Program-made: the position numbers and the translations under genes
Shown: one piece after another, positions 3,382 to 50,261 of the stretch
Position numbering within the stretch: position 1 is the stretch's first letter
Layout of the letters: the number at the start of each line of letters is the position of its first letter
The notes under the pieces: generated by a model
What the model was told of the DNA's origin: nothing
The model's database searches: none
Seen by the model: only the letters and a program-made list of their open reading frames with translations
Source of the DNA: a virus
Taxonomy: Duplodnaviria > Caudoviricetes
DNA: 53,544 nucleotides
Direction: 5' to 3' (one strand)
IMG/VR virus record: IMGVR_UViG_3300017767_000015
Span: 1 to 53,544 of that record

Positions 3382-3934
3382 GGATAAAGACGGCAAAATA
3401 CGCTTCCCCATACTCACAACCGAGTTAGTTCCTACCGGAACATGGGGTGCAAACTTGCGTAGTCTTCTCCCGCCTTCGGGATGGAATCGCTTACGAAGAT
3501 GGGCTTACGAACAAGCCGAACACAAATGCGAGATTTGTGAGCAAGACGGCTTTTCGCAGAATCGCAAACATGCCGTTGAAGCACATGAACTTTGGTCTTA
3601 TGATGATGTGAGACACATACAGACATTGGAAGGCATACAAGCACTATGCCCTCTATGTCATTGTGTCAAGCATTTGGGTCGCAGTCTCAAGGTAGGTGCA
3701 GCAAAGCAGGTTCGTGAACACATGCAAGAAGTGAATGGGTGGGATGCCCATACACAGAAGATGTATGAGGACTTTAGTTTCTTAGTCCACAGTTTGCGTT
3801 CTCGCTTTAGATGGACAGTTGAGATTCAAGACAAATTAAAAGAGTATTTGGATATGGGCGTGATAAAGCAGAAGGATTATGATACTGCGATTGGCCGTCT
3901 CAAAAATGGTGCTTATAGTGAGGAAAAGAAATAA
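3359..3934 (+). CDS. HNH-type endonuclease
   Basis: ELVP..W..NLRS...W..LR, CEIC, EAHE.W.YDD, ALCPLCH.VKH.G. Confidence 0.75.
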   Translation: MMCLKVFEDKDGKIRFPILTTELVPTGTWGANLRSLLPPSGWNRLRRWAYEQAEHKCEICEQDGFSQNRKHAVEAHELWSYDDVRHIQTLEGIQALCPLCHCVKHLGRSLKVGAAKQVREHMQEVNGWDAHTQKMYEDFSFLVHSLRSRFRWTVEIQDKLKEYLDMGVIKQKDYDTAIGRLKNGAYSEEKK

Positions 3935-12885: not shown

Positions 12886-13070
12886 GCAAATTGTATAGGA
12901 AGAAACATGAGGAAGAACAAGATGGAGTAATGGAAATAGTGACTGATTTACTTGATAGGGTATATGCACTAAAGGCAACTATAATAACGGCCACATTACA
13001 CATAGAGAGAGGCTACGCAGGTAAAGCAAAAGAGTTATTGGAAGCAGGTCTAAGGAGTGAAGAAGAATGA
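12849..13070 (+). CDS. Small hypothetical protein (start probably MSKLY at 12882)
   Basis: GGAGG SD; ATGA overlaps. Confidence 0.6.
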   Translation: MSQREKYGGMDMSKLYRKKHEEEQDGVMEIVTDLLDRVYALKATIITATLHIERGYAGKAKELLEAGLRSEEE

Positions 13071-13678
13071 CTGAAACTATACTCATAGGTATAGCGGGCA
13101 ACATGAAGTCCGGTAAATCCACACTTGCTCTAACACTCGCAACGAGATACAACCTACCTATTCTATCCTATGCGGAGTCTTTGCGTATGGAAGTAGCACA
13201 GGCGTTCTTCCCGAAGATGCGAAAGAATGAAGCGCGCTTCATGTGGGATAACCTTGAAGATTTAGACAAATCCAAGACGAGACCTCTATTACAGGCATGG
13301 GGTCAAGCAAGAAGAGACATGGAAGATGTTGATTATTGGGTCTTGCGTCTTCGCAAGTATGCACAGGAAAAGGGAATGAAGTTCGCTATTGTTGATGATG
13401 TAAGACACATCAACGAGGCAGAAGATGTATTGTCAAATGGCGGTATGATTATTCGCATACATGCAGATACAAACACACTGATTGAGCGTGGTGCAGAAGA
13501 CTTGCATCTACAACATGCAAGCGAAAACATGGTAGCATTAGATGACCATTTAGCAAATCGCTCAAGGTGCATGGTAATTGACAGTAGCGGTAGAAGCCCA
13601 CACGGTATGTTCGTGCAGGTAAAGGATGTAGTCCAAGACTTTTTGATTAGCAGGGGGCATGTAAATGGGTTTGATTGA
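13067..13678 (+). CDS. Deoxynucleoside monophosphate kinase
   Basis: IGIAGNMKSGKST P-loop, SYAESLR, RPLLQAWG..RR....YW, IVDDVRHINE, HASE. Confidence 0.85.
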   Translation: MTETILIGIAGNMKSGKSTLALTLATRYNLPILSYAESLRMEVAQAFFPKMRKNEARFMWDNLEDLDKSKTRPLLQAWGQARRDMEDVDYWVLRLRKYAQEKGMKFAIVDDVRHINEAEDVLSNGGMIIRIHADTNTLIERGAEDLHLQHASENMVALDDHLANRSRCMVIDSSGRSPHGMFVQVKDVVQDFLISRGHVNGFD

Positions 13679-13856
13679 AAAGATTAGCAAGAAGACTATG
13701 AAGTGGGTCATAAAAAGGAAGGGTCTTGGACTATGCAGAATGTGTGATGATGCAATCGCAACCGAGATGAATGAGACATGCAAAGAGTGTTATGAAGAAC
13801 TATGGCTTGAGGAAATGGCTCAATACTACAAAGATGAAATGGAGGCAACACAATGA
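13665..13856 (+). CDS. Zn-finger microprotein
   Basis: CRMC ... CKEC. Confidence 0.7.
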   Translation: MGLIEKISKKTMKWVIKRKGLGLCRMCDDAIATEMNETCKECYEELWLEEMAQYYKDEMEATQ

Positions 13857-14743
13857 GTCTATGGTTTAGCAAACACAGACCCGACTCATGGGATAGGTTT
13901 GTAGGGCAACCTATCCTAAGAGAAGAATTGTCAAATTTAACAAAAGACAATATGCAACATTATTTGTTTCATTCCCCCGAAGCAGGAACGGGAAAGACAA
14001 CTGCGGCACATCTATTAGCAAAAGAGTTAGATTTCCAATTACACATCTTCAATGCTTCCTCAAAGAGACAAAGAGGCATTGAGTTTGTTGAAGAAGATTT
14101 GATTCCATTATCGCAAAGTGGAAGATGGGAGACCATCATACTGCTTGATGAAGCAGACCGCCTAACTATACAAGCGCAAGATGCCCTCAAAGGCGTTATT
14201 GAAAATGCGACTTGTTATTTCATACTCACATGCAACGACTTGGGTAAAGTAAGTCGTTGGCTTCAATCAAGGTGTCAAGTGAGAAATTTCTCACCTATAC
14301 GATTTGGCGATATGTATCATGCACTTAACATGATAGCAACAGAAGAATTGCTTGCTATTGAGTCGGAACATTTGAAGAGTATAGCAAAGAGACATGAAGG
14401 TGATTTGCGAAACGCAATATCCTGCCTACAATCCTATTCAGTTCACCCCAATAAAGAAAAATATATCTCTATTCTCGGTGATTCAAATTTCAATAGCAAG
14501 TCTTTTCTAAAGACTGCGTGTAAAGCAAAGGCGGTTGAATCCGCACATAAGATGATAGAGTCCATGCCTTTGAGACAGACAATCAAGACTGTTCTTGATT
14601 ATGCCGTCGAATCGGGCGTAAGCACAGAAGCAAAAATGAAAGTGATAGATGCTTCAATCACAAGTGAGAGAGATATACTCATGGGTGTTGATGAAGTGAT
14701 TGTATCATGGAATTATTGTAAATTGTTGGCATCGGTTGGTTAA
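13853..14743 (+). CDS. rfcS: Replication factor C small subunit (clamp loader)
   Basis: LWFSKHRP..W...VGQ, AGTGKTT, NAS..RGI, IILLDEADRLT..AQDALK, FILTCN, LQSRC, GDLRNAI..LQ. Confidence 0.92.
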   Translation: MSLWFSKHRPDSWDRFVGQPILREELSNLTKDNMQHYLFHSPEAGTGKTTAAHLLAKELDFQLHIFNASSKRQRGIEFVEEDLIPLSQSGRWETIILLDEADRLTIQAQDALKGVIENATCYFILTCNDLGKVSRWLQSRCQVRNFSPIRFGDMYHALNMIATEELLAIESEHLKSIAKRHEGDLRNAISCLQSYSVHPNKEKYISILGDSNFNSKSFLKTACKAKAVESAHKMIESMPLRQTIKTVLDYAVESGVSTEAKMKVIDASITSERDILMGVDEVIVSWNYCKLLASVG

Positions 14744-18003: not shown

Positions 18004-18386
18004 TGCCTATTAATCTGTCCGAGTGGTCGCAAGAGATTGCCGAGAATAATCCTCGCAGACTCAAGAATATATACAGTCGGGCAGTAGCACTAAATCACGA
18101 TGATTTGATAAACACACTATCCAAGATGGGTAATGTGATGAGTCTTCGCAAATTGCACAGAAAGATAGCAGTTATGTATATCGTCTTGCAGATGGAAGAA
18201 GATGAATTGATTTCCGCTAACGATGTTCTAAAGAGAAGTTTAGATATTGTGCGATTTAGAGCAGGTATGACCGTTGATATGTGCGGTCATGCTCTAAGAT
18301 TAATAGAAAGATGGGGTTATATAGAGAAGTTATCCTCTCCAAAATGGAAAGACACAAAACAATACAGGAGGACTTCGCTTGAATGA
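18000..18386 (+). CDS. Winged-helix domain protein
   Basis: ISANDV...CGHALRLIERWGYIEK.......YRR. Confidence 0.55.
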   Translation: MMPINLSEWSQEIAENNPRRLKNIYSRAVALNHDDLINTLSKMGNVMSLRKLHRKIAVMYIVLQMEEDELISANDVLKRSLDIVRFRAGMTVDMCGHALRLIERWGYIEKLSSPKWKDTKQYRRTSLE

Positions 18387-19170
18387 AATAGTAGTCGGAG
18401 ATATAATGGAAGTCACCTTACCAACTAATCTATATCGCTCTTGTATTACAAGCCCTCCTTATTTTGGTATGCGTTCTTATGGGGATGATGATGCCGAAAT
18501 AGGGAAATCGCAGACCCTTGATGAATACATTGACAGTATGGTAAATATATTTAGGAAGGTGCGAGATAGTCTAACAGACGACGGCACACTATGGTTAAAC
18601 ATAGGAGATTGTTATAACGGTAGTGGTGGCGCAGGTTCGGACTACAAAGAAGGCGGAATCAAATCTTCAAAGAACAAGTGGGGTGCGAGAAATGTAGCAA
18701 ACCTCCCACCTAAGAATCTACTCGGTGTTGGTTGGCTTGTAGCACTTGCTTTGCAGGAAGATGGTTGGATTTTGCGAAGTGAAATAATTTGGAATAAAAG
18801 TAAAGCATATCCTCAACCGGAAGCATACATCAAAAGACCTATTCCTAAACATGAAAGAATATTTATGTTTGCTAAAAACAAAGATTACTTCTATGAACCT
18901 GCGAATCTATTTACTGTGTGGGATATGACCCCTGCTAATAACGGACACGAAGCACCGTTTCCATTGGAACTTCCGGAGAAGTGTTTGTTAGCAAGCACAG
19001 AAGAAGGGGATTGGGTTCTCGACCCTTTCGCAGGTTCGGGAACTACCGGAGTAGCAGCATCGTTAAATAATCGCAACTCGACTATGGTTGAGTTATATGA
19101 AGAGTCAGCCGAGAGAATGAAAGAGAGATTTGAGGCACTTCCTAAGAAGGAAGGTATTGATTGGTTGTGA
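18379..19170 (+). CDS. DNA amino-methyltransferase, beta class (N4-C or N6-A)
   Basis: ITSPPYF catalytic motif before VLDPFAGSGTTG SAM-binding motif; LTDDGTLWLNIGD; HEAPFP. Confidence 0.93.
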   Translation: MNEIVVGDIMEVTLPTNLYRSCITSPPYFGMRSYGDDDAEIGKSQTLDEYIDSMVNIFRKVRDSLTDDGTLWLNIGDCYNGSGGAGSDYKEGGIKSSKNKWGARNVANLPPKNLLGVGWLVALALQEDGWILRSEIIWNKSKAYPQPEAYIKRPIPKHERIFMFAKNKDYFYEPANLFTVWDMTPANNGHEAPFPLELPEKCLLASTEEGDWVLDPFAGSGTTGVAASLNNRNSTMVELYEESAERMKERFEALPKKEGIDWL

Positions 19171-19206: not shown

Positions 19207-19665
19207 ATGGAGTGGAGAATTTCAAAAGGATGGACATATACAGACTTAGAACATAATTGGGTAGGAGAAGGCTTAGTAAGAGCGCATGAGAGGGGTTATC
19301 CTCAAATATACAACGATGCAATATACTATGTCCTTATGGTTGATGATTACCCCGTAGGTTATACTACGGCTACACTTGTATATGATGCACACAATAAACT
19401 AAGTTTCGTATTTGTTGGCAACACCTATGTTAAGTTAGAGTTTAGAGGCAACGGGTTTCACAAAGAGTTGTTAAAGGAAAGGAATGAGCAAATCAAAAAG
19501 TTAAGCGTTCCTATTGTGGCTATCTTAAATCCTTTTGGTAAGACTCCAACGGAGAGACTAAGAGATGTTGTCGTTAGTCTCGGTTATGAACCGATAGCAC
19601 ATAATGATGAACTATTTACTAAATTGCATCTTGATATGAAAGAATACGAGATGTGGTGTTTGTAA
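19207..19665 (+). CDS. GNAT-family acetyltransferase
   Basis: FVGNTYVKLEFRGNGFHKELL acetyl-CoA motif A; TTTATAA box about 30 nt upstream. Confidence 0.75.
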   Translation: MEWRISKGWTYTDLEHNWVGEGLVRAHERGYPQIYNDAIYYVLMVDDYPVGYTTATLVYDAHNKLSFVFVGNTYVKLEFRGNGFHKELLKERNEQIKKLSVPIVAILNPFGKTPTERLRDVVVSLGYEPIAHNDELFTKLHLDMKEYEMWCL

Positions 19666-21893
19666 TGATTGTTGAGAGAGGAAGAGGAAGCACAGTCATT
19701 GTAAGGCATAGAGATAGCGAAGGCAAGAGGCAGACAACCAAAATCACAGGCCATAGACCCTACCTATATGTCGAAGAACATATTGATGTTATCCCCCTTG
19801 AAACCGAAAGTGGTTTTACAGGTCTATACGGAGAGGACATAAAGAAAGTATTTTTCGGCACAACGCAAGATTTGTCGGAGTTTCGCAGTAGCAACCCCGA
19901 CACATCAACATGGGAAGGTAATATCCCCTTCACCAATAGAGTTCTTGTTGATAGCGAATTTGAATGCCCTAAGTACGAACATAGGGTTTGGTTCTTCGAT
20001 ATGGAATGGAAGATTGATGGTGGCGAGATAACTATAATTGTAGTGCGTGATTCTATCAAGGGCGAGTTTGTTTTCTTTACACATGAAGATTATGAGGCAG
20101 GTAATTACACAAGCATACCTTGTAAGAATCACCCCTATGGTGATGAGGCTTGCGAAACAGACGGGCGTTCATTCAAGGCTTTCAACAACGAATCCGAGAT
20201 GTTATCGGCATTTGCTAAATTACTCAATTCGCATGACCCCGATATATTGACGGGTTGGAATGTAGTCAATGCAGATTGTCAGCAGTTATTCAAGAGATTC
20301 AAACACAATAACTTAGATGTGAGAATGCTCTCTCCTATGAGGAGAGTGCGTTATGAGTTCGGTGATTGGGGTCAGCCCATAGTAGGGATAAATGTCATAG
20401 ACTTGATGATTGCGTTTAGCAAACTGTGGGTTATGAAGAACGGTCAATTACCTTCTATGGGTCTCGATGCAGTTTCTTTGCATTGTCTAAAAGACAAGAA
20501 ACTTCCTCTTGAAGATGGTCACGATACATACTACACAGACTTTGGAACATATCTTGATTACGCAAGACAAGATGTTGATTTGCTACCGAGACTAAATGAT
20601 TTGGTTGATGCTCTCGGATATTATACTGCTCTACAACATATTGTAGGTTGCGATATTAGAAGCACACCATTTATCACAAAGATGTTCACCTATCTAAGTA
20701 TGAGAGATAAGGACTTTGATAGAAAGATTCCTACTAAACCGCAGTTTGGGAAGGTGGAATATGAAGGTGCGGAGATAATGAAACCGCAAGCGGGAGTCTA
20801 TAAGAATATAGGGATATTCGATGTGAGAGCCATGTATCACAGTAATGTGGATAAATACGGTATTTGTTGGACTACTCTCGATGAAGAAGGGGAAGACTGC
20901 GGTAATGGTATCAAATTCAGTATGGATAAGAAGGGTCTATTATGCAGACAGATGGATAAAATGACTGAACTTCGCAACATATACAAGAAGAAGATGAAAG
21001 AATCGGAAACCGAGATGGAGAATAAGAGATACGACGCTCTCCAATTCGCAACAAAATCCCTTGTTGCTTCTATGTACGGGGTAGCAGGAGACGCAAAGTT
21101 CGGTATGTATCACCCCGATATTGCTGCTGCGATTACATTTACTTCAAGACAGACATTGGGCGAATTGCGAGACCACGCAGAACAACTTGGATTCCCCGTT
21201 ATCTACGGACATACCGATTCTATTATGTGCGAAGTTCCAACACCGGAACAAGGGCTTGCTGCATTGTCTATTATCAATGAGGAAATGAAACCAATAATCA
21301 CGGAGTTTGAGAAGTGGTCTTCCGCTTTCTTGATAATGGCAAAAAACAGATACGCAGGTATGGTTCAATGGACTGATGGTGATTACCATGAAAGAGAGTT
21401 CTATGTCAAAGGTATAGAGATGAAGCAAAGTAGGCTACCTAAAGCCATGAAAGATGCTATGGTAGGAGTGATAGATGCTATACTGACAGACACTAAGGAA
21501 GAAGTAATAACTATGCACTTAGGTTCTCTTATATCAAAGATAGTTAGTGGAGATATACCCGTTGAGGATTTGACAATAAAGGGGAAACTCAAGAATGATT
21601 TGTCAAAATATTCTGTTCTTAGTGAAGCAAGAGCAGGTGCTAAGTGGGCTAATGATAATTTGGGTAAAGGTTATCGCAAAGGAGATTACTTTCTATGCAC
21701 CATTGATGAACATGGAAACTACATAGGTTTCGATTCTCCCGATGAGATAGAGGGAATCGCAAAAATTGGATACCAACAGTTAGCAGATAAATATATTCTC
21801 TCAAAGGTATTACCTTATTATGAAGTAATGGGATGGGATAGTATGCCACTTGAAAATAAACTTCGTGGTATAGGCGATATGGAGTGGATTTGA
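19665..21893 (+). CDS. polB: Family B DNA polymerase with 3'-5' exonuclease (start at ATG 19665)
   Basis: Exo FFDMEW, PDILTGWN, Y...DV; Pol FDVRAMYHS, KSLVASMYG, YGHTDS, KNRYAG, KGIE. Confidence 0.93.
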   Translation: MIVERGRGSTVIVRHRDSEGKRQTTKITGHRPYLYVEEHIDVIPLETESGFTGLYGEDIKKVFFGTTQDLSEFRSSNPDTSTWEGNIPFTNRVLVDSEFECPKYEHRVWFFDMEWKIDGGEITIIVVRDSIKGEFVFFTHEDYEAGNYTSIPCKNHPYGDEACETDGRSFKAFNNESEMLSAFAKLLNSHDPDILTGWNVVNADCQQLFKRFKHNNLDVRMLSPMRRVRYEFGDWGQPIVGINVIDLMIAFSKLWVMKNGQLPSMGLDAVSLHCLKDKKLPLEDGHDTYYTDFGTYLDYARQDVDLLPRLNDLVDALGYYTALQHIVGCDIRSTPFITKMFTYLSMRDKDFDRKIPTKPQFGKVEYEGAEIMKPQAGVYKNIGIFDVRAMYHSNVDKYGICWTTLDEEGEDCGNGIKFSMDKKGLLCRQMDKMTELRNIYKKKMKESETEMENKRYDALQFATKSLVASMYGVAGDAKFGMYHPDIAAAITFTSRQTLGELRDHAEQLGFPVIYGHTDSIMCEVPTPEQGLAALSIINEEMKPIITEFEKWSSAFLIMAKNRYAGMVQWTDGDYHEREFYVKGIEMKQSRLPKAMKDAMVGVIDAILTDTKEEVITMHLGSLISKIVSGDIPVEDLTIKGKLKNDLSKYSVLSEARAGAKWANDNLGKGYRKGDYFLCTIDEHGNYIGFDSPDEIEGIAKIGYQQLADKYILSKVLPYYEVMGWDSMPLENKLRGIGDMEWI

Positions 21894-22232: not shown

Positions 22233-23165
22233 ATGAAGAGGCCACCGGAAGGACTTACTTCTAAGGAGTTATCAAAGTTAGGTAGTTATGACCCTAACGA
22301 TGAAGATAAGTTTTTGAAATTATCAAAATCCTCCTTCATGTCCTATAATATGTGTCCTCGTAAGTTTTGGTGGGAAAAGATACAATTGAAAGACACTCGA
22401 CTCCCTGCTACGGAGGCCATGCTTGCAGGAACTTTCGTGCATGAGAACCTTGAGACTGTCTATGATAATTGGGAAGGCCAATCTGTCTTATCCCCTCTTA
22501 TACCGGAAGATAGAGAGCATAAGTCAAACGCAAGCCTCGTATTCCTTGAGGAATGTAGGATTGAAAAGTGGGGTCTTGATAAATTCAAGCCCGTAGAGTA
22601 TGAAGAGTATAGGGCAGTATGGGATGAAGAGAATGAAGTTATCCTTGTTGGTCTCATAGATGCGATTCTTGTTCACCCCGATGGCGGTCTGTGTATTTAT
22701 GAACTTAAGACAGGTAATTGGGCTTCCAACAAAATGCAAAAGACAAGGAAGGAACTTTGTTATTACGCTCGTATGTTGCGATTGATGGGAGAAACAAGAC
22801 CTATCACACACTTTGCTTATCTTGCCCCCGATGCAGAAAACCCCAAGTTCTTCGCAGAACTGTGTGGTTGGAAGGATGATTGGGGAGAGTGGGATATTGA
22901 TAGAGTTATGACCTGCAAAGGTGGATGGGTCAATACGCAGAACAAAAAAGAAATCGCATTAGGTAAAGGCGGTAAAGGAATATTAATCGTGGAAAAAGTA
23001 AATAAGAGAAGTATTACATCATTAGAAAAGTCTCTAAAGGAGGCTTGCGAGGGTATAAAGAATCATCAATGGCCTATGAAATGGTCGGATTATTTCTGTC
23101 CTCAATGGTGCGACTTTTCAATGTCTTGCGAAAGTGAAATGAATGGATTAGATAATTTGTGGTGA
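22233..23165 (+). CDS. Cas4/AddB-like PD-(D/E)xK nuclease with Fe-S cysteines
   Basis: LSKS....Y..CPR, GT.VH, GLIDA, YELKTG, EL.YYA, C-terminal CPQWCDFSMSC. Confidence 0.85.
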   Translation: MKRPPEGLTSKELSKLGSYDPNDEDKFLKLSKSSFMSYNMCPRKFWWEKIQLKDTRLPATEAMLAGTFVHENLETVYDNWEGQSVLSPLIPEDREHKSNASLVFLEECRIEKWGLDKFKPVEYEEYRAVWDEENEVILVGLIDAILVHPDGGLCIYELKTGNWASNKMQKTRKELCYYARMLRLMGETRPITHFAYLAPDAENPKFFAELCGWKDDWGEWDIDRVMTCKGGWVNTQNKKEIALGKGGKGILIVEKVNKRSITSLEKSLKEACEGIKNHQWPMKWSDYFCPQWCDFSMSCESEMNGLDNLW

Positions 23166-23169
23166 AAGA

Positions 23170-23316
23170 ATGATTTGTAAAGAATGCGATGGAGAGATGA
23201 CAATTAAGGCAGATAGCAGACCTATTATGTTAATAACGGGTGATGTTGATACTGAAAGTAAAAGAATAGCGATATGCTCTATATGTGGACATAGAGAGAT
23301 TATTAAAGACGAGTAG
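23170..23316 (+). CDS. 48-aa Zn-ribbon microprotein (not in ORF track)
   Basis: MICKECDGEM...AICSICGHREIIKDE*; GGTGA SD. Confidence 0.65.
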   Translation: MICKECDGEMTIKADSRPIMLITGDVDTESKRIAICSICGHREIIKDE

Positions 23317-23329
23317 GTTGTGACATACT

Positions 23330-24307
23330 ATGCTCAAGTTTCCCCGACAGATTGGTTTGAAGAGACAGAAATGCTACTCCAAAGAAGAGTTTGATAGTTA
23401 TATCAACAAACTCAATGGTAAGACTAACATCTATACAAGCCTCTATCACTTTGACGACCCACATGATTATGATACTGTCGTTATTGACAGGGCTTGGTGG
23501 GATTTTGATATGAATGAAGATTATCCTATGCAGATAGTCAAAGAAGATGTTGCTAATCTAATAAAGCGTTTAGAAGGTGATGTGAGGCTTGTGGCGACAG
23601 GTAGAGGTTTCCATGTGCATCAAATATTCAAGCGACCCGTAAAGGGCAGGGATTGGGCTTTTCACCTTGACCGTTATCAAAGGAAGATGGCCGAAGGTCT
23701 CACTTCCCTTGATGGTGTAGGTTATCCGGAGAAGATTACTCGCGTCTCTAATACCTTTAATGTATCAAGAGGTAAGTGGGCTACTCCAATAGAAGCAAGG
23801 GTATTCGCACAGAATCCCAGTGATTATAGCATACCGAAAAGAAAGAACCTTGATAATATGCTTGACCCTTTCTTCGGTATAGTGAATCACGATGATTGCT
23901 TCGACTTGGTTATTTGGAAGGCTGATAATCCGTATCAAGAGTCCAATAATCGCACTAATAACACGGTTAAAGTAGGGCATCATGGGGGAGAAGTAGCATT
24001 ACCTACATGCCTAAATAGGGCTATTCGTATGAGCAACCCACCGCATCATGTCCGTGTTGGTTTAGTGCAGACTATGGCTCAACAGTTAAGATGGTTCGCA
24101 GACCCCGAAGATTTGACTATTGATGAGAGGATGGGTATTGTTGATAATATATGCGATTTCATAGAAGGTCTTGGTTGGATAGATTATAATTCTGCTACTA
24201 CTCGCAAGTATGTTCGTGGAATGATGAAATACAAGCGTTCCCCTTCCCCTTCTTGGTATCGCAGACACAATTTATGCAACGGAGATTGCTGGTATTGTGG
24301 GAAATGA
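23330..24307 (+). CDS. Archaeo-eukaryotic primase, PriS catalytic domain fused to a PriL C-terminal-like domain
   Basis: WWDFD, TGRGFHVH, ITRV.NT; then LPTC...NPPH..R..L, DYN...T, terminal LCNGDCWYC. Confidence 0.85.
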   Translation: MLKFPRQIGLKRQKCYSKEEFDSYINKLNGKTNIYTSLYHFDDPHDYDTVVIDRAWWDFDMNEDYPMQIVKEDVANLIKRLEGDVRLVATGRGFHVHQIFKRPVKGRDWAFHLDRYQRKMAEGLTSLDGVGYPEKITRVSNTFNVSRGKWATPIEARVFAQNPSDYSIPKRKNLDNMLDPFFGIVNHDDCFDLVIWKADNPYQESNNRTNNTVKVGHHGGEVALPTCLNRAIRMSNPPHHVRVGLVQTMAQQLRWFADPEDLTIDERMGIVDNICDFIEGLGWIDYNSATTRKYVRGMMKYKRSPSPSWYRRHNLCNGDCWYCGK

Positions 24308-24336
24308 TTATACAGTCTGTTAATTGTATTCGCGAT

Positions 24337-25047
24337 ATGATATACGCAGACGACAGGGAAAACGACGCTTTATTACATCGTCTTTATGTTGCTGCCGGAA
24401 ATCGTAAGACCGACCCTAAAGGTAATGTTCTCGTAAAGAGACTACCTCACGGTGATTATCAAATAGGAGATTGGTTGATTGAGGCAAAGGAAATCAACGA
24501 CTTGTATCGCACAATATTAGGTATAGGAAGGAACGGAAGGACAATCAATCATCAGTTATCGGAACTTTGCGAAGTATCAGAAAAACCATTCCTTGCGATT
24601 TATGGAACGCAATTGAAACCATATTTCAAGGGAAGAAAACCAAAGGCACATGAAATGAAGAAGGAAATAGCAAAAATGAATAGGGTTATCAAGTCATTTA
24701 AGATGGTTGCCTATTCGCATTTCCCTAAACTTAGGATTATAGAGTTCGTAAATATGGAAGATTTCGTTGAGTGGCTACAAGTATCGCACTTGAAAAAACA
24801 AATAGGTAAGACATTGACTGTTGCTAAGAGAACTAAGACTTTGCCTACTGACCCAAGATTGCTTGCTCTAATGGGAGTTCAAGGAATAACAGAAGAAATA
24901 GCAACATCATTACTCAATAAGTTCGGTAGCATACCTAACTTACTCAAGACAAAGGTTAGAATCAAAGACTTGATGGCTATTAGAGGAGTAGGTAGAGTCA
25001 CCGCAAGAAGGATAAAAGAATTGAGAACCACATGGAAGGATTTATAA
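24337..25047 (+). CDS. ERCC4/XPF-family structure-specific nuclease with HhH pair
   Basis: IYADDRE, LPHGDY, IEAKE..DL..TI, QL..L; VQGITEE.A..LL.KFGS, IRGVG..TA. Confidence 0.88.
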   Translation: MIYADDRENDALLHRLYVAAGNRKTDPKGNVLVKRLPHGDYQIGDWLIEAKEINDLYRTILGIGRNGRTINHQLSELCEVSEKPFLAIYGTQLKPYFKGRKPKAHEMKKEIAKMNRVIKSFKMVAYSHFPKLRIIEFVNMEDFVEWLQVSHLKKQIGKTLTVAKRTKTLPTDPRLLALMGVQGITEEIATSLLNKFGSIPNLLKTKVRIKDLMAIRGVGRVTARRIKELRTTWKDL

Positions 25048-25148: not shown

Positions 25149-28100
25149 TTAGTAAGGTCGGAAGTTATCACTTTCGGCAACATTAGGTTTATTCAATCTT
25201 CTTAGATTCACGGAAGTATTGTGAATGATTAGGGAATCATAAGGCGCATTGTCATTACCTTGATTAGGTTTCCTTGTTATGTCTATTTTAAGGGTGTTTC
25301 CTGCGGTGCTAAGACCCTCAATGAGGGTAGTGGGCATCAAGAGTATCTTCTCCCTGTTTTTAGAGCCTGTAAGGACTTTTGTTGTGCTAACGCTCTTGTT
25401 AGTTTCAATGCAAGTAGCAGTCATTGTTAGTTCTATATTGGTTGAGGTATCTGTTGATACTATTGACTCAAGAGAAAATAATCCCCCTGCCGAATCATTA
25501 GGAACTCGCAAAGACATGGAATAAGTATGTTGCTCATTCTGCCCCGAACCGGAGTCAAGAGGGTTTTCTATACCGGACATACAGAATCCTTCGGATGTTG
25601 CGATTGCTACTCCGGTTGTAGGTGAACTGATAACATCAACACCATCAACTGCTCTATCGAAGGAGGATTGATTACCTGTCTTCTTCATACCGAGAATGCC
25701 CCATGTTCCGCCACTTGAACCTATGTCATTGTTGAAATCGGATTTACCTTTGATTCTATTTAGTAGGCTTTGCGATATATCATTAGAAGTCATACCAGCA
25801 TAACCCATACCTTGCGAAGATGGGTCTCCACCATCCACATGACGACTCATCATTACCTTTCTTCCATCATTATCTCCCGAACCTCCGAACTTGGCGGGTG
25901 GTGGTCTTAGCGAAGGTGGTCTTGGTCTTGCGGGTTTTGCTTTTGCTTTATCTCCTCCGCCTCCGCCTCCTCCTGTTCTCTCTTTAAATGCTCTTGCGAA
26001 ATTGTATCGAGAATGGGTTGATAATTTTTCAAGACCTAATTTTACTTGTTCCACATTCCTTTCTGTTTGTTGCCAACCTATTCTCTTTATTATCATCCTC
26101 TCATTACTTATGTCAATATTAGCATCTGTATATGTTAGGCTTGTAGCAGGAATATAAGCAAAATCATCAACTATGTTTATTCTTGGTGCGTAATAAGCAG
26201 CGTGTTCCTTTGCTAAAGCACCCATCTCCGGATATTCTCTCATTCCTAATGGGAATATGGAATCAGCAGAAGTGGATAATCCTAATGACCCAAGACCTAT
26301 CTTCCCATTAGCCATTGATGATTGTCCAAAGGCTACTACATCACCGCATCTTTCTTTAATAAGCGCGCACAGATAATCATAATTAACTGAAAATATTATT
26401 TTGCGAGCATTACCATCATAACTCGATGGTATATCCATTGTGTAATATCCATTTCCGTCTATCGTAATATCCTTTCTATATGTTGAGTTTAGTGTATTTG
26501 TTACTGTATTATCCGGAGGGAAATTAGATGAAGTAGCGGTTGTATTAAAATCGCAATCCATTAAATACAATTGGAATTTTACATCTGTGCTATTCGTTCC
26601 CGAAAATAATCCAATTGCTAATCGCAACTTTTCTCCGGTAGTAGCACTTACTTTGTTAGTTCCTGCACTAACATGCACTACTTGTAGAGCATTTGACAGG
26701 CTATTTGCCCCATAGAAATAATAGGCTTCATTTTTTAGATGTTGTTCGGCAAAAGAAAAATTAATGGTATGAACTCCGGAGGAAAAAGAAGTTCCATCAT
26801 AGTATATTCTAAAATTATAGTAGTTTCCTGTGCTTCCTATTTGACATGGTAAATTATAATATCCTGCGGTAGAATAGGTGACATTAGTTCCTGTATTACC
26901 ATTATAGTCAAATCTAAATGTTGTAGAAGCAGTAGTTATTATTACTTGCCCTGCAATACCAAAAGCAGTTAGTGGAGGATTAGCAAATGTATTACTGCCA
27001 CTTGGATTAAATACGCCACCATCTGTTTTAAACAAAGATAATCCTTCCACCCCGAAAGTTTCCGGATGTGCTTCATTACCTACAACCGGATGAGCAACTT
27101 GTGAGGTTGATGTATGGGGATTGGTTTTGTCAAAGGTATGTGTGGCTTTACTTTTACCTATTTTGTGTAGTCCATTTTGTATTCCAAAGAAAGGACTAAC
27201 TCCGTTTTTATTAGACCACCAACAGGTTTCGGGTTGCGTGTGCGATATTGAGGTTGATGATGTATTCAATCTTTTTCTAAACACATCTGCGATATATCCT
27301 CTTCTACCACTAAGCATCTTGTGATTATTATTAGCATCTCTTAGCATTTCTGCTTCAATACTAATTTTTGATTCGGTTTCTCTATCAAATTCTTGTTTTG
27401 CTAATGCTTCTGCTTCTCCTCTATTCATAACTTCGGGGAATGCTAAAGTTTTCCATCTTATATCTGTATTTTCGCTTGGTGTTGGGAAATCAACAAATGA
27501 ACTATTACCATTATAATATACTCTTACATTTGTTATTTGCGAAAATCCTTCTGTTCTAAGATTTGATGTTTTTAAATTGTCACGATTTAAAGTAACGCCC
27601 AAATCATATATTTCTCTAAACTCTAATCTGTTATCTCTTCCCATTTGGAAAGTCAATCTTTTAGTATTACCAGCAATACCTACTCCTTCTTTGCTACTCA
27701 TACTATCAAGAATATCATAGATGGTTTTTGTCTTTGCATCAATAGAACATCCGAAAGTGTCCGAAGAATTATCTCTCAATATAGGAACATTGTTAATATC
27801 ACTAATTGCAGGAAGGGAAGAATTATTTAACCAAGATTCGTGAATTGCATTATTTTGAATAAATGAAATCTTCTCATCAGCAGTAAATGTTCCGCAATTA
27901 GCAGAAGTAATTTTACCTACTATGTTTAAGTTTAATCGCAGACCATATAGAGCAGCAGTAGTATTATAGACAGTGACTTTATCAAAATTAGTATCTAATT
28001 TATCATCGGATAGTAAGTCTTCGTTGCTACCAATCGCAACACTACTTCCTGTTGCACCTGCCGTTACATCTGCTTTTAATTGGTCTATTGCATGTTGAGG

Positions 28101-31100
28101 ATGCGTAACTACTGAATAAGATGTAAGATATACACCTGTTAGAGTATCAACAACAGTTCCATTTATGGTAGCAGTTCCTTTTCCTGTCCAAGCATAGTAG
28201 TATGCAGTTTTTTCTGCGGTATTATTACTACCCTTCTCGCACATTATTACTCCATATCCGGAAGTATCAAATTCTGTTATATCCTTTAGTGCTAATGTAG
28301 TATCTCCTACTACAAGATTACTTTTTAATTTAGTTCCGTCATTAATAAAATTCAAAGAGTTTTTATGTTTTTGGATAGGACTTCCCGAATTTTTATAAGA
28401 TGCAGTAGCCTCTTTCCAATAAGAATCAATAAGGTATGGGAATCCGAATGTTGCTACATTGTAATCTCCAAAATCTACAAGGCCACCTGCTGAATAACCC
28501 GGCCTTCCTCCACAAGCCATAGTGTTTAAATTCCAAAATCTGCTCACATCAACAAGTGCTATTGCACCACCTTTGTTTTGCCAATTGTGGTATCTTGTAT
28601 CGTATGGTTCATCGTTGCTTGCGCCATCTAAAGCAGACCAAGCACCGCCACTATAAGGCTCAACGGTAGAATCAATATCCCAAATATCTGCATCTGCGCC
28701 TATTTTTAAGTCTGTAAATACATCGGGTTGTCCTTCATTATCAAATTGGTCTGCAAATGTAAGTAGTAATTCGTAGTTCTGCGTAGTAGGTAAATTTAGA
28801 CCATAAGTTGTTTTTCTGTGTCCTCCGTCTGCATCTGCATTACCATCGTTTCGCATATCAGCCCAAGATAGGAATATATGTTTGTAGCCATTAGACTCAT
28901 CTACTTTTCGCAAACCAAGAATAGTATCATTTATTTTCCATTCTCTTTTTACTCCTTTTACTCCACCAATAGTTACAATACCATGTGCTGCCTTTCCTCC
29001 TGTTTCAGCAGAAGGGAAAGAACCATCCCACCCACAGTTAGTATTAACATCTGTTGCTTCAAGACTCCAATTAACTGCATCGGGGTCTTGATTGTGTCTT
29101 GCCGTTCCATCATTCCAACCCGACCCTTGTTGATACTTAGCCTGTAAAAACGCAAAAGAGTTTCTTGTAGGAACATACTTGTTAATTTTCCATGTCTTAA
29201 TGTGATTTGCTGATAATGATGAACCCGTTGATGTTGATATTTCTTTTACCATGTGGACTCCATTTAATGCAGAATTTGATTTAAAACCACAAATTGCTAT
29301 AATGTCTCCTTCTGCAAGACCATGTGCGCTTCCAAAATCCCAAGTTCCGTCTCCTTCCCAATCAATAGGAACTTCATTTTGTATTGATAATAAACTACCA
29401 ATCGCAAAATCATGTTCTCCTGTTGAGTTATCTATTAAATCTAAAATAAATTCATCTAATTTATTCATGGTAGCATGATACCAAATAGCAGGGTCTTTAA
29501 TTGTTATTGAAATAGCACCTGCGGCAATATCAGCAGTTAATTTAGCACTTGTTCTACCTGTTGATGTAGCCCAACCATTTGCCGTTGCTTGTGTTGAAGT
29601 AAAGGGATGTTCTGTAATACTACCTACACCTGCTCTTGTATATGGTTCTGCATCTATAATACCAAACTGTGCTTTAAACCAAGTAGATAAAGGCAAGTCT
29701 CGCATCCATCTTGCGTGTATTCGACTATGTATTACAGGGTCTAAGCCCACTCTTACCATTTCAGCATTAGCAGTATCGGTAGTAGCACCACTTGGAGTTT
29801 GATGTATAACGGCAGGAGTTATTACTCTTCTTTTATCATTATGCGAATTAATATCTCTTTGTCTATACACATGCAGTTCTTCTGTGGCAGCAGAAGCAGT
29901 AAAATTAGCAAGACCTGTTTTTTTTGTTGTTTCAGCATAAACTGTTCCTGCCGAAGGAACTCCTATTACAGTAAATACTTCTCCTGCGAATGGATGGTCT
30001 GCACCGGAAAAACCTACAAATTCATCTCCTATGCTTAAATTATGTGGAGAAGGAGTATTAACAATAAATTCTAATAATTCGTTGCCAAACATATTCATGT
30101 TATAACTTTGTATGTGATTTACTATATTAAAAGTAATTTGTAGATTATCGCTTGCTTGTGTTCCTGTTACTGCCAATTCAAAGGCTACATACCTGTTATC
30201 AGTTCCGCCTTGATGTTGCTTATATGTTATCGCAGAAATAATAAGGTTATCAGCGTCATTAGTTAATGTTCCTTTTAGAGACACCCTATCACCTACTGCT
30301 AACGCACGATAATGAGTAGTTCCGGAAGTATCAATAGTAAATCTTGTATCTCTTTCTATAATTACAAATAGTTTATTTGCTTCTCTATACATAGAATAAA
30401 TATCAAACATTCCCCAATTCGCTGCATTTAATCCAGCCCATTCTTTTTCAACGGAGTTTGCGCCATCTTCGTCTTCATTAATATACATCTGTATAGCAGT
30501 TCCGGAGTATAAACTCATTTTACTATTAGCAACATTATTATAATTAAGAAGCCTTCCTCTTGTATTAAAAACACCAAATCCTATATTAGAATCAAGCATC
30601 TGCAAATCAACAGAACCAAAGTCCATTTTTTGATGTAGTGCAAATGTCTCATCGTATTTTTTAGCAGTAGAAGCAGACATAGATAAATGGTTGTTAAGGG
30701 ATTGGAATGCACCTTGACCTACTTCCCAAATAGGAAGCAATCTATTAAATACACTTAAAGAATCCGAAGCACTAATTGTTGTTGTCATAGAATTATCATA
30801 AACACTTTGTTTATGTGTAATGTTTTCAATAAAGCCCCACCATAGAGGTCTATCTTCGTTTTCTTGAAATACTAATAGCCTCCAATCTTCTGCGGTAGAA
30901 GTAAGAGGAGTAAGAGTAAATGCGCTATTATCATCTAATATATCAATAGAGCATGTGCTTGTGGAATTAGCACCTAAATTCATTGTCATTTTATTAACAG
31001 GAGGTAAAGAATTTAAATCACCATTAAATTTATTTGTAAGAGGAATAGCCATACCTGCTCTATCAATAAGAGTAGTATGGTTTATGTAATCATCACTACC

Positions 31101-50210: not shown

Positions 50211-50261
50211 AGAAACATCAAAATAATTACATTTATATGGTATATGGTGTGTGCTATTAAC

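What the first reader, a model, noticed from the sequence alone, without database searches (positions are those of the whole stretch)
20820..21221. PolB with substitutions in all three polymerase motifs
Seen: motif A DVRAMYHS, motif B KSLVASMYG, motif C YGHTDS; Exo II reads WNVVNAD. Established consensus: DxxSLYPS, KxxxNSxYG, YGDTDS and NxxxFD. The two essential aspartates, the steric-gate Tyr and the Lys remain, so the enzyme is probably active, but P>H, N>A and D>H all lie around the dNTP pocket. Inference: a co-evolved active site with changed selectivity or fidelity, possibly for a modified nucleotide (a dNMP kinase, GNAT and phosphoesterase are also encoded). No base-modification pathway is recognisable, so it may just be a clade signature.
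Basis: partly seen in the sequence, partly recalled or inferred. Interest (0 to 1): 0.7.

Follow-up and report, generated by a model that had tools for sequence, protein, structure and literature searches.

The report
Marine archaeal-virus DNA polymerase, rewired active site
This is the replicative family B DNA polymerase of an uncultured ocean virus, probably of archaea, whose unusual active-site residues are a fixed signature of its lineage and include a paired swap at two positions that laboratory polymerases cannot lose one at a time.

Summary
The ORF 19653..21893 (likely ATG start at 19665) is a full-length family B DNA polymerase. It carries DVRAMYHS, KSLVASMYG, YGHTDS and WNVVNAD at the stated coordinates.

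These residues are a lineage signature, not a chance oddity. A207, M394, H396, A472 and H520 are invariant in 121 of 121 relatives (50-95% identity), as are all catalytic residues.

The three sites did not change together:
- **Motif C D>H** is older. It is shared with a wider group that includes the split polymerases of group B magroviruses, and it arose about five times.
- **Motif B N>A** is recurrent.
- **Motif A P>H** is specific to this clade.

Every polymerase with the motif C His has also lost the KxY lysine (KNRY here). That lysine senses the primer minor groove and is near-essential in RB69, Pol epsilon and KOD. Position 565 is the only conserved column that changes in all four independent His lineages.

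My best reading is an active replicase with a charge-neutral His/small-residue replacement of an Asp-Lys pair. No base-modification pathway was found. The neighbouring methylase and GNAT are dispensable in relatives that keep the signature.

Verdict: a new variant of a known enzyme kind, of moderate interest.

The parts
19665..21893 (+). Family B DNA polymerase gene. The mechanical ORF starts at GTG 19653. The likely start is ATG 19665, overlapping the TAA stop of the upstream gene (TAATG), which gives 742 aa. Residue numbers in this report count from 19653.
   Evidence: Pfam PF00136 scores 124.9 bits against a cut-off of 23, and PF03104 scores 36.9 bits. Relatives align from query residue 5 and are mostly 741-747 aa. 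AlphaFold2 gives pLDDT 94.0 and pTM 0.87. Foldseek gives TM 0.83 to KOD-type polymerase 5vu9_A.
19992..20009 (+). Exo I motif, FFDMEW. Catalytic D116 and E118 are present.
   Evidence: D116 and E118 are present in 121 of 121 relatives.
20256..20276 (+). Exo II motif, WNVVNAD. N203 and catalytic D208 are kept. The aromatic residue before the Asp is Ala (F>A, A207).
   Evidence: A207 and D208 are present in 121 of 121 rows. Phe is found at this column in 94% of 110 other PolBs. Ala also occurs in P0140, P0165 and P0196 and in P0272, P0283 and P0345.
20559..20573 (+). Exo III motif, YARQD (Y303, D307).
   Evidence: Both residues are present in 121 of 121 rows.
20820..20843 (+). Motif A, DVRAMYHS. 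Catalytic D390 and steric-gate Y395 are kept. L>M at 394 and P>H at 396.
   Evidence: H396 and M394 are present in 121 of 121 rows. H396 was found only in this clade among the 141 rows, and in one further clade member (P0401) among the 117 rows.
21054..21080 (+). Motif B, KSLVASMYG. K468, S473, Y475 and G476 are kept. N>A at 472.
   Evidence: A472 is present in 121 of 121 rows. N>A needs 6 changes on the tree and also occurs with the canonical Asp.
21102..21104 (+). G484, at a position where 91% of other PolBs have Arg (12 residues after the motif B Asn).
   Evidence: Gly is present in 105 of 121 clade rows.
21204..21221 (+). Motif C, YGHTDS. The metal-binding D522 is kept. The first Asp is replaced by H520.
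   Evidence: H520 and D522 are present in 121 of 121 rows. In the model the residues sit at the turn of a beta-hairpin (strands 516-520 and 523-527).
21303..21311 (+). EFE (E551, E553). I take this to be the counterpart of the KOD third-metal glutamates E578/E580. That equivalence is by motif position only and was not shown by any alignment here.
   Evidence: The KOD roles come from PMC5718519 (passages).
21342..21353 (+). KxY motif reading KNRY. The conserved lysine (RB69 K706, Pol epsilon K967, KOD K592) is N565. Y567 and the preceding K564 are kept.
   Evidence: The alignment to Pol alpha KKKY places N565 on the second Lys. N565 is present in 121 of 121 rows. It co-varies perfectly with H520.
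21423..21434 (+). KQSR, in place of the usual (V/K)RRD after the GxE strand. R>Q at 592 and D>R at 594.
   Evidence: Q592 is present in 121 of 121 rows and R594 in 119 of 121.
13853..14743 (+). RFC-like clamp-loader AAA+ ATPase. It is part of the same conserved replication module.
   Evidence: Pfam AAA 1.9e-11 and RCF1-5-like lid 2.7e-6. Present in 14 of 24 related loci (44-94% identity). The other 10 have little upstream DNA.
22233..25047 (+). Downstream replication/repair genes conserved with the polymerase: a PD-(D/E)XK nuclease (22233-23165), a primase-like ORF (23330-24307) and an ERCC4/XPF nuclease with HhH (24253-25047).
   Evidence: Pfam hits and PHROGs hits. Conserved in relatives. 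The primase reading rests only on motifs seen by eye.

Best explanation
This is the sole, active, proofreading replicative family B DNA polymerase of an uncultured marine tailed virus of the magrovirus kind. The host is probably a Poseidoniales archaeon, and the virus most resembles what the literature calls group C.

Its unusual motifs are a fixed lineage signature that built up in steps.

**Step 1, old and recurrent.** The first Asp of motif C became His, and at the same time the KxY lysine was lost (Asn here). In canonical enzymes that lysine reads the minor groove at primer position n-2. I infer three things:
- In canonical enzymes this Asp and Lys form a buried ion pair at the primer terminus.
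- The longer His side chain occupies the place of the lysine amine, so the lysine has to shrink to Asn, Thr, Ala or Gly. The swap is charge-neutral.
- The His, alone or with the Asn, takes over holding and sensing the primer terminus.

**Step 2, recurrent.** The motif B Asn, which contacts the beta-phosphate and 3'-OH of the dNTP, became Ala.

**Step 3, this clade only.** Pro>His next to the steric gate, Phe>Ala in Exo II, and five further changes at conserved charged residues.

**What is shown and what is inferred.** Shown: the residues, their invariance, the phylogenetic order and the covariation. Inferred: the physical contact, the takeover of function by His, and continued activity. [quoted passage not shown] Use of an exotic nucleotide is less likely.
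For: **Identity and fold**
- Pfam PF00136 scores 124.9 bits and PF03104 36.9 bits.
- The best PDB sequence match is Pol alpha at 3.4e-29, one of 100 matches.
- The model has pLDDT 94.0 and TM 0.83 to KOD over the full length.
- It is the only PF00136 match in the record, which CheckV rates 84% complete.

**Constraint**
- The catalytic residues and the variant residues are equally invariant, 121 of 121 rows at 50-95% identity.

**Order of events**
- FastTree, 141 rows: the query clade has support 100. It is sister (support 99) to 7 rows with His in motif C, Pro in motif A and Asn or Ala in motif B. A 31-row superclade (support 97) holds 30 His rows.
- IQ-TREE, 53 rows: the clade is sister (SH-aLRT 98) to a group holding the N-terminal halves of split polymerases.
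- Those split polymerases carry VYGHTDSIY and KNRN in 60 of 60 C-terminal halves found, from 80 loci examined.

**Covariation of positions 520 and 565**
- 141 rows: Asp with Lys in 108, His with a non-Lys in 33, no mixed rows. Each site needs 5 changes. Independent pairs go the same way in 4 of 4.
- 117 further PolBs: Asp/Lys 104, His/Asn 3, Asp/Cys 3, gaps 7.
- Of the 50 columns that are at least 90% conserved in Asp-type rows, only 520 itself and 565 change in all 4 independent His rows.
- The P0177 lineage has a second member, P0243, with His; there an intein follows YGH.

**Literature (passages read)**
- Almost all substitutions of KOD D540 and K592 inactivate PCR (PMC5568139).
- RB69 K706A nearly abolishes synthesis, and yeast Pol epsilon K967A is lethal. 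This lysine hydrogen-bonds the base at n-2 (PMC4333401).
- Only D404 and D542 bind metals A and B in KOD (PMC5718519).
- piPolB has Thr for the first Asp and a changed KxY motif, yet is a proficient replicase (PMC5695915).

**Context**
- The replication module is syntenic across 24 related loci.
- Split DNAP, the absence of a ligase and a nuclease gene inside the structural module all match descriptions of magroviruses (PMC5434244, passages).
Against: - No enzyme of this type has been assayed, so activity is inferred from conservation only.
- The Asp-Lys contact could not be measured, because the model's coordinates are not returned. It rests on covariation and on a paper I recall but could not open (Xia et al. 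2012, Biochemistry; searches failed).
- The sign test on independent pairs gives p = 0.125. Four pairs cannot reach significance.
- Three of the independent His lineages (P0143, P0201, P0261) are single sequences on 3.4-3.6 kb contigs. P0261 sits on a long branch.
- The coupling is not absolute in the other direction. Three rows keep Asp but have CHY instead of KxY. piPolB keeps a Lys in its KTRG motif although its first Asp is Thr (PMC5695915).
- The FastTree and IQ-TREE trees place the outer His lineages slightly differently, and neither tree is rooted.
- The group C label rests on gene content described in the literature, not on comparison with reference genomes. The nuclease showed no sequence similarity to any solved PolD DP1 or Mre11 structure.
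Confidence: 0.72

Rival explanations
1. The altered pocket (N>A, P>H, D>H, Exo II F>A) is an adaptation to copying or incorporating a modified or non-canonical nucleotide used by the virus.
For: - N472 corresponds to KOD N491, which touches the beta-phosphate, the 3'-OH and the nascent base pair (PMC5718519, passages).
- Exo II F>A would enlarge the pocket for the 3' terminal base (inference).
- A dNMP-kinase-like ORF (13067-13678; AAA_18 3.7e-7, DNMK 3.1e-4, the latter below its cut-off) is conserved in 12 of 24 related loci.
- About half of the + strand ORFs have no recognised family, so an unknown pathway cannot be excluded.
Against: - No thymidylate-synthase-like, deaminase, glycosyl/aminoacyl transferase, 7-deazaguanine, PurZ or similar family appeared among the 30 + strand ORFs and the polymerase scanned.
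- The only DNA-modifying gene is an N6/N4 methylase. It is missing from 6 relatives with enough flank (L014-L017, L021, L026) that keep the signature. The GNAT is missing from L019, L021 and L022.
- D>H with K>N and N>A occur in other virus lineages with different gene content and several times independently.
Confidence: 0.08
2. The motif C His changes metal use. It would act as a direct or second-shell ligand that favours Mn2+ or another ion at site A. The lysine loss would be a side effect.
For: [quoted passage not shown]
- I recall, but did not re-read, that Pol alpha D1002N altered metal-specific catalysis (Copeland and Wang 1993).
- His is a good Mn/Fe/Zn ligand (general chemistry).
Against: - In KOD ternary complexes metals A and B are bound by D404 and D542 only (PMC5718519 and PMC7763228, passages).
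- The strict loss of the lysine, and its replacement by any small neutral residue (Asn, Thr, Ala, Gly), fits a steric and charge pairing better than a metal switch.
- The third-metal glutamates appear to be kept as EFE; this equivalence is by motif position only.
Confidence: 0.1
3. The enzyme is not the replicase. It would be a weakened, specialised repair or translesion polymerase, like archaeal PolB2, or an inactive scaffold.
For: - Archaeal B2/G2 polymerases also have a single Asp and a conserved His in motif C, and they act in translesion synthesis (PMC7544198, section 15 read).
- Single substitutions at the two positions inactivate KOD (PMC5568139, passage).
Against: - Unlike B2/G2, all three Exo motifs are intact.
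- It is the only polymerase found in the record.
- It sits in a conserved module with a clamp loader, a primase-like gene and nucleases.
- Its variant residues are invariant over a clade down to 43% identity.
- piPolB shows that the first Asp is dispensable for efficient synthesis (PMC5695915, passages).
Confidence: 0.05

Closest known systems
Magrovirus DNA polymerase B: Philosof et al. 2017 (PMC5434244) and the 'Magro' group of the PolII-like clade in Kazlauskas et al. 2020 (PMC7544198)
   Same: - Marine metagenomic tailed-virus PolB with the GWN Exo II signature of the PolII-like clade.
- It clusters (SH-aLRT 98) with N-terminal halves of split polymerases on 60-98 kb contigs, which match the split DNAP reported for group B magroviruses.
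- It shares His in motif C and Asn in KxY with them.
- The gene content resembles group C as described: no ligase or DnaQ seen, and a nuclease gene inside the structural module.
   Different: - This clade adds P>H (motif A), F>A (Exo II), R592Q, D594R, D706G and D90N, and its gene is not split.
- Its contigs are 50-78 kb, not about 100 kb.
- The papers' main texts do not mention the motif changes. 'YGHTDS' occurs in 0 held papers.
- Their figures and supplements could not be seen, and the logos of Fig. 4 in PMC7544198 may already show the His.
Thermococcales B3 polymerases (KOD, 9 degrees N, Tgo), the closest solved structures
   Same: - Same full-length fold (TM 0.83, 20% identity).
- Same catalytic Asp pair, steric-gate Tyr and motif B Lys, and the same Exo I-III motifs.
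   Different: KOD has D540 and K592, both intolerant of almost any substitution (PMC5568139), plus N491 and P410. The virus enzyme has H520, N565, A472 and H396 at the matching positions.
RB69/T4 gp43 and yeast Pol epsilon and Pol delta (the KKRY lysine K706/K967/K814)
   Same: Homologous palm with motif C next to the KxY strand. Same PolII-like or general PolB architecture.
   Different: In those enzymes the lysine hydrogen-bonds the n-2 base, and its loss nearly abolishes synthesis or is lethal (PMC4333401). Here it is naturally Asn, always together with His in motif C.
Primer-independent PolB (piPolB) of pipolins
   Same: The first Asp of motif C is replaced (by Thr) and the KxY motif is altered (KTRG), yet the enzyme is a proficient proofreading replicase (PMC5695915).
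   Different: piPolB belongs to a different major PolB group (protein-primed-like, with TPR1/2). It keeps a Lys in KTRG, has Thr rather than His, and primes de novo. None of this is suggested for the virus enzyme.
Archaeal PolB2 and bacterial G2 polymerases
   Same: Only one conserved Asp in motif C, and a conserved His in that motif (PMC7544198, section 15).
   Different: B2/G2 have lost Exo I and Exo III, belong to the B1-3-like clade, and act in translesion synthesis. The virus enzyme has intact Exo motifs and a replisome gene context.

Membership tests
Family B DNA polymerase (Pfam PF00136 + PF03104) | Profile match above the curated cut-off, and a full-length PolB fold | tested here: met
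   PF00136 scores 124.9 bits and PF03104 36.9 bits, each against a cut-off of 23. Model pLDDT is 94.0. Foldseek gives E 1.4e-40 and TM 0.83 to 5vu9_A.
Family B DNA polymerase | 3'-5' exonuclease motifs: Exo I DxE, Exo II Nx3(F/Y)D, Exo III Yx3D | tested here: met
   D116, E118, N203, D208, Y303 and D307 are present. The five catalytic residues are present in 121 of 121 rows. The aromatic residue of Exo II is Ala, which is not canonical.
Family B DNA polymerase | Motif A DxxSLYPS, with the catalytic Asp and the steric-gate Tyr | tested here: met
   D390 and Y395 are present. S>A, L>M and P>H are deviations within the motif.
Family B DNA polymerase | Motif B Kx3NSxYG | tested here: inconclusive
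   K468, S473, Y475 and G476 are present, but the Asn is Ala. Asn is found in 92% of 110 other PolBs.
Family B DNA polymerase | Motif C YGDTDS with two aspartates | tested here: not met
   Only the second, metal-binding Asp (D522) is present. The first is H520. Literature shows the first Asp is not required for activity in piPolB (PMC5695915).
Family B DNA polymerase | KxY (KKRY) primer-terminus motif | tested here: not met
   The motif reads KNRY. The KxY lysine is N565, while Y567 is kept.
PolII-like clade (Kazlauskas et al. 2020) | A 'GWN' Exo II motif with a conserved Trp | tested here: met
   The sequence reads TGWNVVNAD. The definition is taken from PMC7544198, section 16.
Magrovirus ('Magro') PolB group | Clusters with magrovirus polymerases to the exclusion of halovirus/B5 and T4-like PolBs | tested here: inconclusive
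   It is sister (SH-aLRT 98) to a group holding split polymerases that fit the published description of group B. Halovirus PolBs fall elsewhere. No named magrovirus reference sequence was available, so the labels are inferred.
Magrovirus group C (Philosof et al. 2017) | Caudoviral structural module, an archaeal-type replisome, no DNA ligase, no DnaQ, and a PolD-DP1-like nuclease gene inside the structural module | tested here: inconclusive
   - Found: TerL 8.4e-39, a weak portal hit and tail proteins, and an RFC-like ATPase.
- No ligase or DnaQ was found among the ORFs scanned, in a record rated 84% complete.
- A Metallophos nuclease lies between the portal and TerL genes, but it has no sequence match to solved DP1 or Mre11.
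- PCNA, MCM and SSB were not identified.
Archaeal PolB2/G2 (translesion type) | Loss of Exo I and Exo III, and a D(K/R) motif substituting for the missing Asp | tested here: not met
   Exo I and Exo III are intact in 121 of 121 rows. The D(K/R) motif was not looked for.

The most novel reading that the evidence does not exclude
The first Asp of motif C and the KxY lysine form an obligate functional pair in family B polymerases. Nature has replaced that pair at least four or five times with a His plus a small neutral residue.

In the hugely abundant magrovirus polymerases the His itself would then be the sensor and holder of the primer terminus. This would mean:
- The main job of the 'third catalytic aspartate' is to position the lysine, not the metal.
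- A second, workable solution exists for minor-groove checking.
- That solution may give different mismatch-extension behaviour, different polymerase/exonuclease partitioning, or different tolerance of minor-groove-altered or sugar-altered substrates. All of these could be transferred to KOD-type enzymes as a double mutation.
Probability: 0.4. Interest if true: 0.7.

Novelty: new variant of a known kind. Interest (0 to 1): 0.55.

Why it matters
Family B polymerases are the best-studied replicases and the workhorses of PCR, sequencing and XNA engineering. Their motifs are usually treated as fixed.

Here a whole, globally abundant group of ocean viruses replicates with an enzyme that lacks two residues. 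Each of those residues is near-essential on its own in KOD, RB69, phi29 and yeast Pol epsilon. The two are always replaced together.

This gives three things:
- A clean natural experiment on what the first motif C aspartate and the KxY lysine really do.
- A simple double-mutant test that can be run in existing laboratory enzymes.
- A new scaffold for polymerase engineering.

It also corrects the tempting reading that odd polymerase motifs imply odd DNA chemistry. Nothing in this genome supports that reading.

Tried and rejected
- **Paper searches that gave nothing useful:**
  - One search was too general.
  - One search yielded only the KOD mutagenesis paper.
  - One search returned mostly unrelated USP7 papers.
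  - The passages of PMC6342957 say nothing about the first Asp.
- **Papers not held:** I tried to open Xia et al. 2012 by DOI and Wang et al. 2011 by PMC id. Their content is cited only as recalled.
- **Model coordinates:** the AlphaFold model is returned without coordinates.
- **Unassigned ORFs:** NCBIfam on 10 such ORFs gave only sub-threshold noise. PHROGs on 10 gave one HNH endonuclease and one weak RadA/Sak4-like hit.
- **The nuclease:** the Metallophos nuclease has no match in the PDB sequence search, so 'DP1-like' is not shown.
- **Control genomes:** those are only tallied, so archaeal PolB2 could not be checked for the KxY state.
- **Cultured phages and haloviruses:** the collection has no close relative. 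The best match is 23.7% identity and all 1699 matching records are under 60%. Three halovirus PolBs have canonical motifs.
- **Rejected reading, sequencing error or pseudogene:** the ORF is open and the residues are invariant in 121 of 121 rows.
- **Rejected reading, three-site co-evolution as one unit:** the trees rule it out.
Full report
**1. What is there**

The window is an IMG/VR virus record of 53,544 bp. It is linear and CheckV rates it 84% complete.

Genes run on the + strand to about 25 kb. They then run on the - strand to about 50 kb, with a matching switch in GC skew.

The ORF 19653..21893 (746 aa from a GTG) is a family B DNA polymerase:
- Pfam PF00136 scores 124.9 bits and PF03104 36.9 bits, each against a cut-off of 23.
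- PHROG 262 'DNA polymerase' matches at 1.4e-84.
- 100 distinct PDB sequences match at E <= 0.01, the best being yeast Pol alpha at 3.4e-29.

Relatives align from residue 5. An ATG at 19665 overlaps the TAA stop of the upstream gene as TAATG. The real product is therefore probably 742 aa. I keep the numbering from 19653.

An AlphaFold2 model built on a 65-row alignment has mean pLDDT 94.0 and pTM 0.87. It superposes over its whole length on KOD-type polymerases (5vu9_A, E 1.4e-40, TM 0.83).

It is the only PF00136 match in the record.

**2.

Exo II lies upstream of the stated span.

The HMMER alignment to Pol alpha puts H396 on the Pro of SLYPS, A472 on the Asn of NSMYG and H520 on the first Asp of YGDTDS.

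The KxY motif (KKKY in Pol alpha) reads KNRY, so the KxY lysine is N565.

**3. It is a lineage signature under strong constraint**

The word-indexed search found 357 proteins at E <= 1e-10 among 4,867 candidates. The 120 listed are 50-95% identical, come from marine metagenomes (Tara and others), and sit on contigs up to 50-78 kb.

In the alignment of these with the query, two sets of residues are present in 121 of 121 rows:
- Catalytic residues: D116, E118, D208, Y303, D307, D390, Y395, K468, Y475 and D522.
- Variant residues: A207, M394, H396, A472, H520, N565, Q592 and G706.

Less strictly kept are R594 (119 of 121), N90 (119), S498 (117) and G484 (105).

The exhaustive representative search found 7,694 homologues at E <= 0.001. 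Among the 150 listed, identity drops sharply from 43% (P0125) to about 30%.

A scan for positions where the clade is fixed for a residue that differs from one at least 70% conserved in 110 other PolBs gave 15 sites. They are D90N, F207A, W293Y, L359I, L394M, P396H, L437M, N472A, R484G, G498S, D520H, K565N, R592Q, D594R and D706G.

**4. The three sites did not change together**

The 141-row alignment comprised the query, 15 clade members, 122 representatives of 600-1000 aa and three halovirus PolBs. Inteined or fragmentary rows were left out.

| Combination | Rows |
|---|---|
| Canonical at all sites (69 with Leu at 394; the rest vary at the Exo II aromatic or at 394) | most of the rest |
| Full clade signature | 19 |
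| His in motif C, Asn in motif B, Pro in motif A | 9 |
| His in motif C, Ala in motif B, Pro in motif A | 5 |
| Ala in motif B with the canonical Asp | 2 |

The tree results, with the tested columns removed, are:
- FastTree gives the clade support 100. It is sister (support 99) to seven His/Pro rows, inside a 31-row group (support 97) with 30 His rows. Three further His rows lie elsewhere.
- A better alignment and an IQ-TREE quick search on 53 rows agree. The clade has support 100 and is sister (SH-aLRT 98) to a 13-row group. The His state needs 6 changes, of which starred branches force 5.
- On the 141-row tree His needs 5 changes, Ala472 needs 6, a non-aromatic Exo II residue needs 3 and His396 needs 1.
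- Halovirus PolBs (HRTV-27, HCTV-5, HF1) are canonical.

**5. The relatives are magrovirus-type polymerases**

A profile of the sister lineages retrieved 665 proteins at E <= 1e-20 among 8,000 scored candidates. Of the 120 listed, 113 are 540-577 aa.

One of these (P0356) aligns at 50% identity to residues 12-511 of the unsplit P0140 and stops just before motif C. It carries DFAGLYPS and KRLMASFYG.

I fetched 80 IMG/VR loci around such genes. In 60 of them a C-terminal half was found downstream, and all 60 begin near VYGHTDSIY. All 60 carry KNRN in place of KxY.

Philosof et al. 2017 (PMC5434244, passages read) describe exactly such a split DNAP in seven group B magroviruses. They also describe group C as lacking ligase and DnaQ, and as carrying a PolD-exonuclease-like gene inside the structural module.

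The window shows the following:
- TerL, a weak portal hit and tail genes.
- A Metallophos 'DNA repair exonuclease' gene between the portal and TerL genes.
- An RFC-like ATPase.
- PD-(D/E)XK and ERCC4/HhH nucleases.
- No ligase among the ORFs scanned.

I therefore read it as a magrovirus-type archaeal virus, most like group C. I could not compare it with named reference genomes, and the nuclease has no sequence match to solved DP1 or Mre11.

Kazlauskas et al. 2020 (PMC7544198, sections 15 and 16 and passages read) define a 'Magro' group inside the PolII-like clade, whose Exo II reads GWN as it does here. Their text says nothing about its motif C. Their logo figure and supplements could not be seen.

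'YGHTDS' occurs in none of the held papers.

**6. The real covariation: motif C Asp with the KxY Lys**

- In the 141 rows there are 108 Asp-with-Lys rows and 33 His-with-non-Lys rows (Asn 28, Thr 2, Gly 1, Ala 1, and one that reads Arg or Asn depending on the alignment). There are no mixed rows.
- Both characters need 5 changes, and independent sister contrasts go the same way in 4 of 4. The sign test gives p = 0.125, because four pairs cannot reach significance.
- The contrasts are P0143 (His/Gly) against P0161 (Asp/Lys), support 99; P0201 (His/Thr) against P0249, support 96; P0177 (His/Ala) against P0134 and P0211, support 100; P0261 (His/Thr); and the magro group against the rest.
- Among 117 further PolBs there are 104 Asp/Lys, 3 His/Asn, 3 Asp/Cys (a 'CHY' lineage) and 7 with gaps.
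- Of the 50 columns at least 90% conserved in Asp-type rows, only 520 itself and 565 are changed in all four independent His rows. The next best association score is 0.72, against 1.0.

Caveats:
- P0143, P0201 and P0261 are singletons on contigs of about 3.5 kb.
- P0177 is backed by P0243, which has an intein inserted right after YGH.

**7. What the residues do in known enzymes (passages read)**

- **The KKRY lysine** (RB69 K706, phi29 K498, Pol delta K814, Pol epsilon K967) hydrogen-bonds the primer base at n-2. K706A nearly abolishes synthesis, and K967A is lethal and turns Pol epsilon into an exonuclease (PMC4333401).
- **KOD D540, T541, K591, K592 and G607.** In saturation mutagenesis of residues near the primer and template, these tolerate almost no substitution (PMC5568139).
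- **Metals.** Metals A and B in KOD and Tgo are bound by D404 and D542 only.
- **KOD N491** contacts the beta-phosphate and can bond the 3'-OH of the dNTP, and it stacks on the nascent pair (PMC5718519, PMC7763228).
- **RB69 L415M** behaves like wild type (PMC3799440), so M394 is unremarkable.
- **piPolB** has Thr for the first Asp and KTRG for KxY, yet is a proficient replicase (PMC5695915). B2/G2 and PolB_SITDG also lack the first Asp (PMC7544198).

I recall, but could not open, a statement in Xia et al. 2012 (Biochemistry 51:4343). It says that the n-2 minor-groove bond fixes the rotamers of K706 and D621 and the position of metal A.

**8. Mechanism proposed**

Shown: the paired replacement, its recurrence and its invariance.

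Inferred:
- The Asp and Lys form a buried ion pair at the primer terminus.
- A His in place of the Asp reaches to where the lysine amine sits. The lysine must therefore give way to a small neutral residue, which keeps the net charge unchanged.
- The His, alone or bonded to Asn565, holds and senses the primer terminus. K564 is retained and may help.

The later changes re-tune the dNTP and exonuclease pockets in this clade. They are N472A, H396 beside the steric gate, the Exo II F>A, and the loss of two Arg and three Asp with the gain of R594. Their effect cannot be read from sequence.

The most probable consequence is a change in mismatch extension and in polymerase/exonuclease partitioning.

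**9. The modified-nucleotide idea**

Thirty + strand ORFs and the polymerase were scanned with Pfam, and many of them also with PHROGs or NCBIfam. The hits were:
- A kinase-like P-loop protein (AAA_18 3.7e-7; DNMK 3.1e-4, below its cut-off).
- An N6/N4 methylase (1.2e-41).
- A weak GNAT hit (1.5e-3, below its cut-off).
- An HNH endonuclease.
- A pyrimidine-dimer glycosylase.

No base-modification pathway was found.

In 24 related loci the replication module is syntenic. The methylase is missing from 6 loci and the GNAT from 3 loci that have enough flank, and the polymerase signature is kept in all of them.

About half of the ORFs remain unassigned, so the idea is not excluded. It has no positive support.

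**10. Verdict**

The enzyme is a member of a known family and of a known virus group. Its active-site variant, above all the His/Asn replacement of the Asp/Lys pair, is not discussed in any text I could search. It is a new variant of a known kind, with a direct experimental test.

Limits:
- There is no biochemical evidence.
- No coordinates were available.
- The independent events are few.
- The figures and supplements of the two key papers were not seen.

Noticed in passing
L030-L109 (IMG/VR loci around split polymerase genes): The C-terminal halves of the split magrovirus-type polymerases start just before motif C. They read KNRN where KxY should be, so both the Lys and the Tyr of the motif are replaced. 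This holds in 60 of 60 halves found, from 80 loci. The halves lie 1.3-2.4 kb downstream of the N-terminal gene in the ten loci printed.
   Followed up: partly
P0243 (relative of P0177, 1189 aa): An intein is inserted exactly between YGH and TDS of motif C, in a polymerase that also has His for the first Asp.
   Followed up: partly
P0404, P0408, P0425: A small lineage keeps the first motif C Asp but has CHY instead of KxY, and Ala instead of Leu in motif A (DLxSAYP). It is the only exception to Asp-with-Lys seen.
   Followed up: no
window 25149-32366 (-) and 32392-35868 (-): Two very long ORFs (2405 and 1158 aa) lie in the structural half. They are presumably tail-fibre or adhesin-like and were not examined. 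This region also has a lower GC content (0.34-0.38, against 0.40-0.43 elsewhere).
   Followed up: no
window 2086-2586 (+): An ORF matches the pyrimidine-dimer DNA glycosylase family (Pyr_excise, E 1.1e-5, 26.1 bits against a cut-off of 23). This is a UV-repair gene in a virus of the sunlit ocean.
   Followed up: no
window 23330-24307 (+): This 325-aa ORF has no family hit. It does show WWDFDM and GRGFHVH strings, which resemble archaeo-eukaryotic primase motifs. It is conserved next to the polymerase in 18 of 24 related loci.
   Followed up: partly
window 24253-25047 (+): An ERCC4/XPF-type nuclease with a C-terminal helix-hairpin-helix pair. This is an archaeal/eukaryotic-type repair nuclease.
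   Followed up: no
window 50244-51497 (+): A Metallophos 'DNA repair exonuclease' gene (phrog_7339, 3.4e-37) lies between the portal and large terminase genes. This fits the published description of group C magroviruses, but the protein has no sequence match to any solved structure.
   Followed up: partly
window 18379-19170 (+) and 19207-19665 (+): The N6/N4 DNA methylase and the small GNAT-like ORF just upstream of the polymerase are accessory. Each is absent from several relatives that have enough flanking DNA.
   Followed up: yes
window 3359-3934 (+): An HNH endonuclease (phrog_5200, 1.1e-37) lies among the early genes.
   Followed up: no
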